Shown: positions 44,901 through 47,352 of the stretch, in pieces
Layout: each line of letters opens with the position of its first letter
Numbering within the stretch: the first letter of the stretch is position 1
NCBI GenBank assembly: GCA_963514005.1
Contig: OY740787.1
Location: 64,232,001 to 64,296,000 of the forward strand
DNA length: 64,000 nucleotides
Origin: Raja brachyura
Taxonomy: Eukaryota
Direction: 5' to 3'
Program-made: the position numbers and the translations under genes
The notes under the pieces: generated by a model
Database searches by the model: none
What the model saw: the letters and a program-made list of their open reading frames with translations, nothing else
What the model was told of the DNA's origin: nothing

Positions 44901-47352
44901 TGGGTTATGAATGTATAACATAATTTATGGTCCTAAATTAAGCCAGTTGTCTTGTCCTGAACCTGCTTGGATTTTGTTCAAGCTGCAGTTAACCACACTC
45001 TTGGCTTGATGGAAAATAAATCTTGGAGATTTAAGAAGAATTATTCAATCATTACAGAATACCGTGTCTTTGGTTTCTTCTTGACTAGACCAAACAATTG
45101 CTCATCAAAGTGGTGTATTAAAGAACTAATGAAAATAATGCCATGTTTAACCAGTACCTTTAAGTTAGTAAAAGCACCTCCAAAAGTGTTAACAAATAAT
45201 AAATAAAAACACTGAGCCAATGTCAAATGCCCAGGTTAAGTTAGGTTTTAAATAGCAAATTAAAAGAAGAAAGGTTTTGGTTAAAGATTCCACAGTTTCA
45301 GGCCATGGCATCTAAAGACACCGCATCCAATAGTGTTTAAATTCAAATGATTCTAAATTCAAGGTCGCAAAATAGTCAAGATTGGAAGTGAGCATAAAAC
45401 GTTTTTGATCAAAGAAATTACATTTAAAAAAAGGCAAAGGAAGTGAGCATGGATCAAAATAAGATTGAGAATTTTTACATCAAAGCTTTTTGGAACTAAT
45501 ATTATTCAGCAAGCACAGGGATAATGGATGAATCAGACATGATACGTTAGGACAATGGATGACGACTAGATTCAGCAATGAATCTCACAAGGATGTAGAC
45601 GGGTTTTCTCTTCAGCTGGAGATGGCAAATGGAACCAAGAAAAATGCAATTATCAGCGAGTATATTACTCATGAGCTTCTGAATGAGAGAAAGCTATTGA
45701 ACCAGCTGAAAGTCATTTGGCCTTGGATATACGAAAACTTTCAATTTCACTGGAGCTTCTTGTTGCCATACTTAGTCAAATTCAGCCTTGCTGTCAAAAA
45801 CAATCACCCTCACCTCATTTCATCAACATGCCAATTTGGATCATAGCCGTAATAATGCCTGGACAGAACTGAACTGAGGATTAGAGAAAAGCTTATTGCT
45901 GAATAAATGGCACTTTGATAGCATGATTGGGAACTCCATGCTCTTGTGTTTTAATTGTGGAGACTGCAAATTCTCCTTCAAGATTCAAATAACACAACAC
46001 TGGGGAAACATGCCATAATCTGCAGGTGGAGTTTTATTGTCAAAGTTTAATAAAAGTGGGATGTGCCAGCAAAGAGCATTGTTAGCATTTGGAATGCACG
46101 ACCTGAATGACAGTTGGAAACAGAATCAGTCGAAACTTTTCAATAAAGAAATTGGACAAATCCTCAGAAAGGAGAACATTGTTCTGATATAGAGAAGTGC
46201 AATTAATTTGGGTGGTTGTTTTAAAAAGTTGACAGAATCAAAATAGGAAAATCTGTTTTATTGTGAACTGTAATATTCTAGGATTCTAGCTTTTACATCT
46301 TTTATTCAGTTATTTTATCTGATCCAATTCAGATGAATGCGCTAAACATTGAGAGCAATGTGAACAACGAACTTTGCAAATTTGCTCTGACCTCCACTGG
46401 ATCCACTGAGCGCTTGATCTTAGAGGCAACGAACAGAGAAATCTATGAAGCTTGGGTTTGTGATATCAACAAAGCACTTGACCTTCAAAATAATTTGTTG
46501 AATGGTATGTAGATGTTTTTTAACCTCAAACGACACCGCAACTCTCTTTAATCTGGTCAGGTACAAGTTGAAGAAAGGCGGGCTAAACATTGGATCTGTG
46601 ATACTTCCCCAATCCCTCTAACTGCACAAATTATCACTAAATTAATTACAACTTATGAATTATGTAAAACGTATTTCAAGACTGTAAACTAAAATTCTAT
46701 GTGATTAAATCAATAATTGGCTCTCTATCTAGGCTGTCAGCTACTCTGCTGCTCCCCCATCCCAAGTGGATGCCAAGACTTCCAATTAGATTGGCTTCAG
46801 GGCAATCACGGTAAAATATCAATATGTAAATTGTGGAGTGCGAACTCTACAGCATACAAGGAAAATCCAGATTTCCATCCAATTGTCTGCCCCCTCGAAA
46901 TGCACAAAATGTCACTGTCTAAATTAACAATTAAAATGTATGAAATATGTAATGCTTATTTCAAGACTGTAAAATAAGATTCTATGTGATTAAATCAATA
47001 ATTATTAGTCACAATCACATGCTGTAAAACTAATGGCTAAGGAGTATTCTGATAATTAGTATATGGCTGTTATGTTAGATTAAAAACATTAATATACCAA
47101 GCCAAGAAAGCAAAAATAAGTCACCAAGAAGGTTATTAGATTACTCTAAAATTTCAATATAAAGATATGTTATGATATGAACAGAACTGTATGAGTCAAC
47201 AATCAATGTTTGTTCTAATGATGACATAATGTTTTATATCTGACATTATAACATTATAACTTAATATGTTGATCTTTATTTCAGCATTGCAATCACCAGT
47301 CGAGTACCAGAGAAAATTGACTCCAAATCTTTTCAGCATAAAACCAAAATGA
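19037..47352 (+). CDS. Stand-alone Kalirin-GEF2-like DH-PH RhoGEF, ~347 aa, 11 coding exons (whole-gene span); probable partial tandem duplicate of KALRN
   Basis: Exons 19037-19104, 19983-20049, 21236-21339, 24398-24467, 36934-37020, 37308-37400, 38062-38112, 41705-41782, 43758-43943, 46333-46504, 47285-47352. All introns are GT-AG and phases are compatible, giving 1044 nt with no internal stop. The start codon is tentative. Confidence 0.85.
19310..19645 (-). mobile_element. HE1-type V-SINE
   Basis: Reverse complement of the HE1 consensus (cctacaaacctgtacgtctttggagtg..acagacagcacccgtagtcgggatcgaac..gcagcaactcta). Confidence 0.85.
19983..20049 (+). CDS. DH-PH RhoGEF exon 2 (DH conserved region 1)
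   Basis: ttttctcacag| (N)[22 protein letters not shown] |gtgaga. Confidence 0.92.
20080..20870 (-). mobile_element. Decayed Penelope-like element, 3' fragment
   Basis: Starts with the common gaaactgcagatgctgg..cagcatct terminus and continues into a purine-rich spacer and the decayed reverse complement of the GIY-YIG C-terminal coding region, similar to 56945-58110. Confidence 0.6.
21236..21339 (+). CDS. DH-PH RhoGEF exon 3
   Basis: tttcag| [34 protein letters not shown](T) |gtatgt. Confidence 0.95.
22426..22958. mobile_element. Palindromic Penelope-derived short element with a nested CR1 3' fragment (~22467-22818, +)
   Basis: Flanked by a 12-bp direct repeat ctagtctcttat (22414-22425 and 22959-22970). 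ORF 22491-22730 is a CR1 ORF2 C-terminus ([35 protein letters not shown]). Confidence 0.8.
23650..23915 (+). mobile_element. HE1-type V-SINE, diverged
   Basis: cagcaccagagacccgggtttgatcctgactac..gggttttct..ccacagtccaaagg..gggctgaaggacctgtttcc. Confidence 0.75.
24398..24467 (+). CDS. DH-PH RhoGEF exon 4
   Basis: tcctttgtag| [23 protein letters not shown] |gtgagt. Confidence 0.93.
24613..24838. mobile_element. MITE with ~33-bp terminal inverted repeats (possibly PIF/Harbinger type)
   Basis: ggcctgtcccacatgggcgtcatttgcgcgtca at the left and tgacgcgcaaatgacgcccaagtgggacaggcc at the right (1 mismatch). Confidence 0.8.
25843..30745 (+). mobile_element. DIRS1-type tyrosine-recombinase retrotransposon, structurally complete but frameshifted
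   Basis: gag-like ORF from 26060; RT ([30 protein letters not shown], 27679-28047); RNase H ([31 protein letters not shown]); methyltransferase-like region ([24 protein letters not shown]); tyrosine recombinase (29517-29921 and [13 protein letters not shown] near 30030-30116). Left end tacgtgaagaagccccgccaggcgcatgctcggcat is inverted at ~30635-30670. An internal complementary region at 30407-30517 pairs with both outer ends; both ends are TTTT. Confidence 0.95.
30746..31290 (+). repeat. 3' part of a GC-rich interspersed repeat interrupted by the DIRS element (5' part 25668-25846)
   Basis: Joining the DIRS flanks gives gatggagatgcaa-tttt-attccatatc, collinear with the uninterrupted copy at 58963-59605. 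Confidence 0.85.
31790..35650 (+). mobile_element. Decayed Ty3/Gypsy LTR retrotransposon (Mag/K02A2.6-like), internally deleted
   Basis: gag ([27 protein letters not shown] knuckle), protease DTGARVNV near 32287, RT N-terminus ([14 protein letters not shown]), RNase H end ([21 protein letters not shown]), integrase ([29 protein letters not shown]). Many stops and frameshifts; no LTR pair could be found. Confidence 0.88.
33270..34002 (-). mobile_element. CR1/HER1-type LINE 3' fragment nested in the Gypsy pol
   Basis: ORF 33524-34042 reads [62 protein letters not shown] and 33352-33591 reads [16 protein letters not shown]. The Gypsy frame resumes on either side. Confidence 0.92.
36345..36790 (-). 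mobile_element. Two HE1-type SINE fragments
   Basis: cacagacagcacccgaggtcaggatc.. and tcggcccaccgagtccgcgccgaccagc..gtgggaggaaac..gggagaacgtacaa. Confidence 0.75.
36934..37020 (+). CDS. DH-PH RhoGEF exon 5
   Basis: tttgcag| [29 protein letters not shown] |gtaagc. Confidence 0.95.
37308..37400 (+). CDS. DH-PH RhoGEF exon 6 (DH conserved region 3)
   Basis: ttattag| [31 protein letters not shown] |gtaagg. Confidence 0.95.
38062..38112 (+). CDS. DH-PH RhoGEF exon 7
   Basis: ttgttgcag| [17 protein letters not shown] |gtaaga; compare recalled Kalirin DFLRYSEKAGLECSDIE. Confidence 0.9.
38468..38745 (-). mobile_element. HE1-type V-SINE, diverged
   Basis: tttagtttagaaataca..gtgggaggaaaccgg..ggtcacagg.agaacgtacaaa..gcagcaact. 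Confidence 0.75.
39555..39845 (+). mobile_element. HE1-type V-SINE, diverged
   Basis: gggtggcacggtgg..ggttcgatt..ggagtttgcatgttctccc..gggccgaaggacctgttcccatgctgtatctc. Confidence 0.75.
40100..40932 (+). repeat. GC-rich interspersed repeat related to the 58963-59605 family
   Basis: Same layout: T-rich leader, gggggaaact, GC-rich body, ccttcc.tcacag..tgtggggatgtttt, cactgtgcc, and a (tgtatct)n tail. Confidence 0.6.
41705..41782 (+). CDS. DH-PH RhoGEF exon 8 (DH C-terminal helix)
   Basis: ttgttacag| [26 protein letters not shown] |gtaaag. Confidence 0.95.
41880..42130 (-). mobile_element. HE1-type V-SINE, internally deleted
   Basis: tttagtttagttta..gatacag..cctacaaacctgtacatctttggagtgtggga..taaggcagcaac..ccactgcgccac. 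Confidence 0.8.
42450..42790 (-). mobile_element. CR1-type LINE 3' fragment, decayed
   Basis: ggagcagaattaggccattcg..ccattcaatcatgg..gcagtgaattcca.. matches the reverse complement of the CR1 3' end. Confidence 0.7.
43758..43943 (+). CDS. DH-PH RhoGEF exon 9 (PH domain, N-half)
   Basis: tttccag| [62 protein letters not shown] |gtaaat. Confidence 0.95.
44415..44550 (+). mobile_element. Penelope-derived short element with a minimal hammerhead ribozyme motif (44419-44446)
   Basis: CTGAAGA-A-GGGTC-TC-GACCT-GAAA-CG-TC, with upstream ggt able to pair with downstream acc; standard terminus ..ccagcatctgcagttccttcctacac. Confidence 0.75.
46333..46504 (+). CDS. DH-PH RhoGEF exon 10 (PH domain, C-half)
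   Basis: aattcag| [57 protein letters not shown] g|gtatgt. Confidence 0.92.
47285..47352 (+). CDS. DH-PH RhoGEF exon 11 (terminal; Galphaq-binding helix motif, stop)
   Basis: ttatttcag| (A)[24 protein letters not shown]; compare the family motif ALQSPIEYQRK. Confidence 0.9.

What the first reader, a model, noticed from the sequence alone, without database searches (positions are those of the whole stretch)
46470..47352. The duplicate stops just after the Galphaq-binding helix, with two substitutions in that motif
Seen: the protein ends ..[29 protein letters not shown], and similarity to Kalirin ends right after YQRK. Known: the FLNALxSPIEYQ helix-turn-helix after the PH domain is the Galphaq docking site of the p63RhoGEF/Trio/Kalirin family. 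Inference: retaining a tiny terminal exon with exactly this motif suggests selection for a minimal Gq-to-RhoA transducer. The F-to-L and I-to-V changes could alter Galphaq affinity or autoinhibition.
Basis: partly seen in the sequence, partly recalled or inferred. Interest (0 to 1): 0.7.

Follow-up and report, generated by a model that had tools for sequence, protein, structure and literature searches.

The report
Shark-and-ray Kalirin GEF2 tandem duplicate
Skates, rays and sharks carry an extra intact gene copied from Kalirin's second Rho-activating module, spliced in this skate, that likely relays Gq receptor signals to RhoA; the two changes in its docking motif are mild and probably tolerated.

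Summary
The motif, both substitutions and the TGA at 47350 are real. They end an intact 11-exon, 347-aa DH-PH gene between KALRN and UMPS in a skate. It is a tandem copy of the KALRN GEF2 exons (same coding lengths for exons 1-10, 72% identity). One spliced contig runs through the stop into a 3' UTR, so the exon is terminal there. Orthologs occur in 18 shark, ray and skate species. Tested ones form one clade inside chondrichthyan Kalirin; grouping with ARHGEF25 is rejected. dN/dS against KALRN is 0.16-0.27. The motif core is invariant in 17 of 17 rows. F-to-L is batoid-wide and I-to-V is skate-only; a Caenorhabditis Trio carries L and K at these sites. Two first-reader points fail. The exon is not tiny, and Kalirin homology runs past YQRK in a shifted frame: the short tail comes from a batoid frameshift. 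The predicted protein has no N-terminal cysteines, so it resembles cytosolic GEFT more than membrane-bound p63RhoGEF. Galphaq binding and RhoA exchange are untested. Verdict: an apparently undescribed lineage-specific paralog of a known kind, of modest interest.

The parts
19037..19104 (+). Coding exon 1 (ATG 19037); the upstream part of the KALRN-derived exon from 18977 is out of frame, with an in-frame TAA at 19007
   Evidence: junction 19104/19983 spliced in X6
19983..20049 (+). Coding exon 2, start of DH domain
   Evidence: spliced in X6
21236..21339 (+). Coding exon 3 (DH)
   Evidence: spliced in X6
24398..24467 (+). Coding exon 4 (DH)
   Evidence: acceptor used in X6
36934..37020 (+). 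Coding exon 5 (DH; holds E121 = Trio E2069)
37308..37400 (+). Coding exon 6 (DH)
   Evidence: junctions inferred
38062..38112 (+). Coding exon 7 (DH)
   Evidence: junctions inferred
41705..41782 (+). Coding exon 8 (end of DH and alphaN; holds M197 = Trio M2146)
   Evidence: junctions inferred
43758..43943 (+). Coding exon 9 (PH, first half)
   Evidence: spliced to exon 10 in X6
46333..46504 (+). Coding exon 10 (PH second half and first helix of the Galphaq motif; L323 = F471 at 46495-46497)
47285..47352 (+). Coding part of terminal exon 11: ALxxP core (L327 = L475, P330 = P478), V331 = I479 at 47299-47301, 11-residue tail, TGA 47350-47352
47337..47408 (+). Fossil ancestral tail in a shifted frame, matching shark ortholog tails and ending at TAA 47406; implies a batoid frameshift near 47335-47339
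47421..47470 (+). Remnant of the KALRN exon end and following intron; donor GT replaced by CC
   Evidence: weak by score alone
47353..47940 (+). 3' UTR covered by the spliced contig; further X6 contigs reach 48822 and 49959; AATAAA at 48471, 48491, 48667, 49628
   Evidence: true 3' end not shown
3886..4431 (+). Context: last kinase exon of the parent gene KALRN
61649..61782 (+). Context: first coding exon of UMPS, the downstream neighbour
   Evidence: later UMPS exon with PRTase and OMPdecase domains at C7:64298933

Best explanation
This is an intact, spliced tandem duplicate of the 11 KALRN GEF2 exons, kept across sharks, rays and skates, that likely works as a GEFT-like, autoinhibited RhoA exchange factor switched on by active Galphaq/11. 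Shown: the gene, its splicing in one run, its origin from Kalirin, purifying selection and the invariant motif core. Inferred from the family: the PH domain holds the DH domain off; Galphaq-GTP docks on the helix-turn-helix around L327/P330 and releases it; the DH domain then loads RhoA with GTP. F-to-L (batoids) and I-to-V (skates) probably tune rather than abolish docking. With no N-terminal cysteines, the protein is predicted to be cytosolic and to depend on recruitment, so its output would be weaker or more conditional than that of p63RhoGEF. The short tail is most likely loss of dispensable sequence: the motif was kept and the tail decayed.
For: Gene: 11 exons with GT-AG introns, no internal stop; exons 1-10 have the same coding lengths as host KALRN; 251 of 347 residues identical. 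RNA: 5 of 10 junctions seen spliced in run X6; the contig length fits the other exons (629 = 618 + 11, inferred). Orthologs: 19 proteins from 18 species. Tree: the 17 duplicate rows form one clade (100/100) inside chondrichthyan Kalirin (100/99). Selection: dN/dS 0.16-0.27 by four methods over 336 codons against host KALRN; 111 of 184 DH columns invariant. Key residues: L327, P330, A326, Y333 and Q334 invariant; E121 and M197 (Trio E2069 and M2146, PMC12309612 passage) invariant. Model of the Amblyraja ortholog: pLDDT 85.9, helix 303-328, turn, helix 330-337, disordered tail; top fold hits are TrioC 6D8Z and p63RhoGEF 2RGN. Tolerance: of 52 of 150 family representatives with LxxP at the motif, 10 have L at F471 and 19 lack I at I479; five nematode proteins with L and K there include Caenorhabditis brenneri. 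C. elegans Trio is a direct Gq effector (PMC5638609, passage). Galphaq binds Kalirin PH2 and relieves inhibition (PMC11630257, passage).
Against: No binding or exchange data exist for this protein. Among 190 matchable, mostly vertebrate motifs, L at F471 occurs 7 times and V at I479 3 times, so both are rare in vertebrates. I recall that alanine changes at F471 and I479 impair p63RhoGEF activation, but those papers were not held. The duplicate evolves faster than its parent: skate-shark identity is 75-77% against 93-94% for KALRN, and the second half of the PH domain is the least conserved folded part (17 of 52 columns invariant). The first cysteine is C89, and cytoplasmic GEFT was under hardly any Galphaq control in HeLa cells (PMC3722567, passages). 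The genome already has TRIO, ARHGEF25 and KALRN GEF2, so a plain redundant role does not explain retention. The RNA evidence is one run of one sample whose kind is not on record. The dN/dS value averages both lineages.
Confidence: 0.6

Rival explanations
1. An active RhoA GEF that has largely slipped from Gq control in batoids: F-to-L, I-to-V and PH divergence weaken docking or autoinhibition, and another input regulates it.
For: Both substitutions are rare in vertebrates (7 and 3 of 190). Long batoid stem branch of 0.11. PH second half 17 of 52 invariant. No lipid anchor (PMC3722567 passages).
Against: A326, L327, Q328, S329, P330, Y333 and Q334 stay invariant through the batoid branch while the adjacent tail decays. 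Nematode Trio GEF2 has L and K at the same sites.
Confidence: 0.22
2. A Galphaq buffer: it binds active Galphaq and competes with PLCbeta, while its RhoA output is minor because it is cytosolic.
For: Docking core invariant. p63RhoGEF competes with PLCbeta for Galphaq (PMC3722567, PMC7599897, passages). No accessory domains.
Against: The DH domain is as conserved as the motif (mean 0.89 against 0.86), which points to catalytic use. Cytoplasmic p63 mutants delayed calcium signals only modestly (PMC3722567, passage).
Confidence: 0.1
3. Not an independent gene: an alternative 3' cassette of KALRN reached by read-through, or a slowly decaying copy.
For: Same strand, about 14.6 kb after the last KALRN kinase exon. 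Scattered X6 coverage at depth about 4-8 between the genes. Frameshifts at both ends of the copied segment. The promoter and first exon were not found.
Against: ORF intact in skate, ray and shark models, with a tree that follows species groups. dN/dS well below 1. In-frame stop 10 codons before the ATG. Database models start at the same Met in 3 of 3 skates and in Hemitrygon. No X6 joint linked exon 1 to upstream sequence in 4600-19036 (absence in contigs is weak).
Confidence: 0.08

Closest known systems
Kalirin GEF2 (DH2-PH2) and the DUET-type short KALRN isoforms
   Same: Direct parent: same exon phases and coding lengths for exons 1-10, 72% identity, same shorter PH loops, same clade.
   Different: A separate locus with only the 11 GEF2 exons. 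No second SH3, Ig, FN3 or kinase exon was found in the window or 70 kb downstream. It lacks the Cys-rich N-terminus of the short shark KALRN isoforms, evolves faster, and keeps EYQ where elasmobranch KALRN has EYM.
p63RhoGEF / GEFT (ARHGEF25)
   Same: Stand-alone DH-PH plus Galphaq extension; aligns over residues 11-339 to 2RGN_B (E 4e-122); L475 and P478 equivalents kept. Several databases name the orthologs 'ARHGEF25-like'.
   Different: Not an ortholog: a clade with ARHGEF25 is rejected (p-AU 6.8e-6), and the genome has its own ARHGEF25 on C42. No palmitoylated N-terminus, so closer to GEFT; shorter at both ends; ALxxPV in skates.
TrioC (Trio GEF2) and nematode UNC-73 GEF2
   Same: Best fold match 6D8Z; E2069 and M2146 equivalents invariant; nematode proteins share L at the F471 site.
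   Different: 64.5% identity to host TRIO GEF2; PH loop before the STP motif two residues shorter than Trio's, as in Kalirin.

Membership tests
Trio/Kalirin/p63RhoGEF Gq-regulated RhoA GEFs | Tandem DH-PH of the GEF2 type | tested here: met
   Pfam RhoGEF 25-194 and PH 209-315 on P0206; best PDB sequence and fold hits 6D8Z, 2RGN, 8C7D
Trio/Kalirin/p63RhoGEF Gq-regulated RhoA GEFs | C-terminal PH extension with the essential leucine and proline of ALxxPI | tested here: met
   A326, L327, P330 invariant in 17 of 17 rows; predicted helix-turn-helix
Trio/Kalirin/p63RhoGEF Gq-regulated RhoA GEFs | Exact F471 and I479 of the vertebrate consensus | tested here: not met
   L323 and V331 in the window; F and I kept in 11 of 11 motif-bearing shark proteins; both sites vary across animals, so not treated as defining
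Trio/Kalirin/p63RhoGEF Gq-regulated RhoA GEFs | Autoinhibition-interface residues (Trio E2069, M2146) | tested here: met
   E121 and M197 invariant; residue roles from a PMC12309612 passage
Trio/Kalirin/p63RhoGEF Gq-regulated RhoA GEFs | Direct binding to and activation by Galphaq-GTP | not tested
   Needs a bench assay; no complex model was obtained
Trio/Kalirin/p63RhoGEF Gq-regulated RhoA GEFs | Nucleotide exchange on RhoA | not testable with these tools
   Inferred from DH2-type sequence only
ARHGEF25 (p63RhoGEF) orthologs | Clade with ARHGEF25 | tested here: not met
   p-AU 6.8e-6; separate ARHGEF25 on C42
ARHGEF25 (p63RhoGEF) orthologs | Palmitoylated N-terminal cysteines of the p63 isoform | tested here: not met
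   First Cys is C89; in-frame stop upstream of the ATG; an unseen upstream coding exon using the CAG at 19024-19026 is not excluded
KALRN-derived paralog | Nested in Kalirin, tandem position, shared exon structure | tested here: met

The most novel reading that the evidence does not exclude
Elasmobranchs re-invented a GEFT/p63RhoGEF-like minimal Gq effector from Kalirin and split the work: full-length Kalirin changed the motif (EYQ to EYM in 11 of 11 elasmobranch rows plus the host), the stand-alone copy kept it, and batoids then retuned the copy (F-to-L, I-to-V, short tail), perhaps alongside the R-to-K change in the skate Galphaq effector-binding helix. The set would be a natural allelic series for Galphaq docking.
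Probability: 0.15. Interest if true: 0.6.

Novelty: new member of a known kind. Interest (0 to 1): 0.35.

Why it matters
It adds a fourth Gq-motif RhoA GEF gene in sharks and rays that databases label automatically as 'kalirin-like' or 'ARHGEF25-like', the latter wrongly. It shows the stand-alone DH-PH-extension design arising a second time, from Kalirin. Shark, ray and skate copies differ stepwise at two motif positions and in tail length, which makes a ready natural series for asking how much of the Galphaq docking motif can vary. The mechanism itself is textbook, so the surprise is modest.

Tried and rejected
Complex prediction with Galphaq was not available, so there is no docking model; a pass would in any case have leaned on likeness to 2RGN. 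The run search listed no holder on record as RNA; X6 was recognised as RNA only from its spliced contig. A first six-frame comparison with the KALRN region was swamped by repeats. No KALRN exon outside the 11 was found in the window or 70 kb downstream: tblastn and nhmmer with 10 exons, best E 0.11; C7:64230001-64232000 was not examined. Timing against the chimaera split is unresolved: support 56/2, alternative p-AU 0.498. No chimaera or bony-fish ortholog stood among the best 120 of 851 hits or the best 150 of 4843 representatives (unnamed); this is weak evidence of absence. The post-stop tail alone against the KALRN exon was not significant at DNA level (140 of 1000 shuffles). Rejected: ARHGEF25 ortholog; assembly artefact (spliced contig, DNA contigs of a second organism, 18 species); recent pseudogene. 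Five primary papers (Rojas 2007, Williams 2007, Shankaranarayanan 2010, Lyon 2014, Bandekar 2019) were not held, and a search for F471/I479 mutant names found nothing relevant. Earlier scan findings: none by place, sequence or words.
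Full report
Observation. The finding covers the last two coding exons of a plus-strand gene. Exon 46333-46504 ends with a phase-1 GT donor, exon 47285-47352 begins after TTTCAG, and the joined frame ends at TGA 47350-47352. By alignment to 2RGN chain B, anchored on L475 as the leucine of ALxxPI, L323 stands at p63RhoGEF F471 and V331 at I479. Each differs from host KALRN by one base.

The gene. tblastn with database orthologs found 11 exons from 19037 to 47352. All 10 introns are GT-AG, the 347-aa frame has no internal stop, and exons 1-10 have the same coding lengths and phases as the KALRN GEF2 exons about 85-90 kb upstream on the same contig; 251 of 347 residues are identical. 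The last KALRN kinase exon lies at window 3886-4431 and UMPS starts at 61649, so the order is KALRN, duplicate, UMPS. The genome has four matches to the PH exon: this gene, KALRN, TRIO on C2 and ARHGEF25 on C42. The protein is 94.5% and 94.2% identical to the Leucoraja and Amblyraja orthologs, so the host is a skate.

Transcript. No listed run was on record as RNA, but one 1643-letter contig of run X6 splices exons 9-10-11 with 0 differences and continues to 47940. Joints at the same depth, 16.6, splice exons 1-2-3-4 at GT-AG. That is 5 of 10 junctions seen; the 629 letters before exon 9 equal exons 1-8 plus 11, which fits the rest (inferred). It is one run of one sample, and contigs drop rare forms and cannot show ends.

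Distribution and origin. Homolog searches and cluster look-ups gave 19 ortholog proteins from 18 species: 3 skates, 4 rays, 11 sharks; 18 of 19 reach the motif, the Heptranchias model being cut short. The tree used 46 rows; I left out P0029, P0208, P0215, P0225 and P0013 as short, redundant or off-domain. The 17 duplicate rows form one clade (100/100), split into batoids and sharks, inside chondrichthyan Kalirin (100/99), apart from TRIO plus ARHGEF25 (100/100; one TRIO row only). A clade with ARHGEF25 is rejected, p-AU 6.8e-6. The duplication postdates the split from bony vertebrates and predates the shark-ray split; its order against chimaeras is open (p-AU 0.498). dN/dS against host KALRN is 0.16-0.27. 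The copy evolves faster than KALRN: 75-77% against 93-94% skate-shark identity on the same columns.

The motif. Across 17 rows, L324, A326, L327, Q328, S329, P330, Y333 and Q334 are invariant, 8 of 13 positions, against 0 of 11 in the tail. F-to-L is in the window and 7 of 7 batoid proteins; I-to-V is in the window and 3 of 3 skates; 11 of 11 motif-bearing shark proteins keep F and I but have D for E. The leucine kept is the one whose mutation removes Galphaq binding (PMC7599897, passages; PMC3722567, passages). Of 150 family representatives, 81 aligned over the motif and 52 had LxxP; of these 37 have F and 10 L at F471, and 33 have I, 6 K, 5 L, 3 T, 2 V and 3 other at I479. Five with L and K are nematode proteins, one from Caenorhabditis brenneri, and C. 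elegans Trio is a direct Gq effector (PMC5638609, passage); carrying this over between species is inference. Against easy tolerance: in 190 of 236 mostly vertebrate hits with a matchable motif, L occurs 7 times and V 3 times, and I recall, without a held source, that alanine at F471 or I479 impairs p63RhoGEF activation. Elasmobranch KALRN itself changed the motif, with M for Q in 11 of 11 rows plus the host, where chimaera KALRN, TRIO and ARHGEF25 have Q; the C. brenneri protein also has M there, so this need not disable it.

The tail. Shark orthologs run some 20-40 residues past the motif, and several of these tails still match the KALRN exon. Batoid proteins end in KPK or KPN about ten residues after it. 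In the window the frame from 47337 matches the 10 shark tails tested (0 of 2000 shuffles; other frames 141 and 1250 of 2000) and stops at 47406. DNA alignment shows the exon colinear with the KALRN exon, with an internal deletion, through the old exon end at 47421-47435, where the donor is lost; that last match is weak by score alone. The likely history is: whole exon copied, donor lost and a stop gained, then a batoid frameshift. The motif was kept while the tail decayed; nothing shows the exon was trimmed to fit it.

Mechanism. The Amblyraja ortholog folds at pLDDT 85.9 into DH-PH with helix 303-328, a turn, helix 330-337 and a disordered tail, best matching TrioC and p63RhoGEF. The Trio E2069 and M2146 equivalents are invariant. 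By family knowledge, Galphaq binds Kalirin and Trio PH2 and lifts autoinhibition of RhoA exchange (PMC11630257, passages). I therefore commit to a Gq-activated RhoA GEF at 0.6. The first cysteine is C89 and an in-frame stop lies before the ATG, so the protein is predicted to lack the palmitoyl anchor; cytoplasmic GEFT binds Galphaq-GTP but signals poorly unless recruited (PMC3722567, passages). Rivals: Gq-uncoupled GEF 0.22, Galphaq buffer 0.10, read-through or decaying copy 0.08. Binding and exchange are untested.

Novelty. Three searches for an elasmobranch Kalirin duplicate returned no title or abstract start describing one. Passages of PMC5499878 and PMC12198301 did not mention it; both used few cartilaginous fishes, and I did not see their supplements. 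PMC12309612 was read as passages and PMC5105084 only as reference-list passages. The library lacks most subscription papers. RefSeq already models the gene under automatic names. It is a new member of a known kind; interest 0.35.

Noticed in passing
G000:C7:64193223-64193260 (L011), host KALRN: Elasmobranch KALRN reads EYM where chimaera and tetrapod KALRN, TRIO, ARHGEF25 and the duplicate read EYQ; a change in the parent's own Galphaq motif.
   Followed up: partly
L053 (G000:C3:57819385-57819603, minus): The host gene that looks like GNAQ has K where Narcine Galphaq has R in the helix before the TIITYPW motif; R256/T257 matter for PLCbeta activation (PMC7599897 passage). The GNA11-like gene on C1022 keeps R.
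   Followed up: partly
G000:C3:57823750-57824493: Two exon-4-like copies in the GNAQ-like gene; a Narcine model joins both. I recall mutually exclusive exons being described for Gq genes.
   Followed up: no
window 19005-19036: A CAG at 19024-19026, 10 nt before the ATG, with a TACTAAC branch-like site upstream. Length arithmetic puts the start of the spliced X6 contig at 19026, which would fit a second acceptor; three Amblyraja accessions share one protein.
   Followed up: partly
window 4850-13791: Scattered X6 contigs at depth about 4-8 between the KALRN end and the duplicate: long KALRN 3' UTR, pre-mRNA or read-through; not resolved.
   Followed up: no
window 26057-29918 and 31765-35464: The 12.5-kb intron 4 holds two broken retroelements: one with a reverse transcriptase piece at 27670-28044, one with an integrase core at 34253-34651.
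   Followed up: partly
window 60403-61089 (minus): LINE-type fragment with a zf-RVT domain just upstream of UMPS exon 1.
   Followed up: no
L030:9639-10000 (G000:C7:64325639 onward): A leucine-rich-repeat ORF of 234 codons downstream of UMPS, possibly part of a Toll-like receptor gene.
   Followed up: no
P0020, P0021, P0025, P0049: Short chondrichthyan KALRN isoforms begin with a Cys-rich N-terminus before GEF2, which may be a palmitoylation anchor like that of p63RhoGEF; the duplicate did not inherit it.
   Followed up: no
P0044 and related teleost kalrnb proteins: Teleost Kalirin b has Q at the I479 site (19 of 190 matchable motifs), a larger departure than the skate's V.
   Followed up: no
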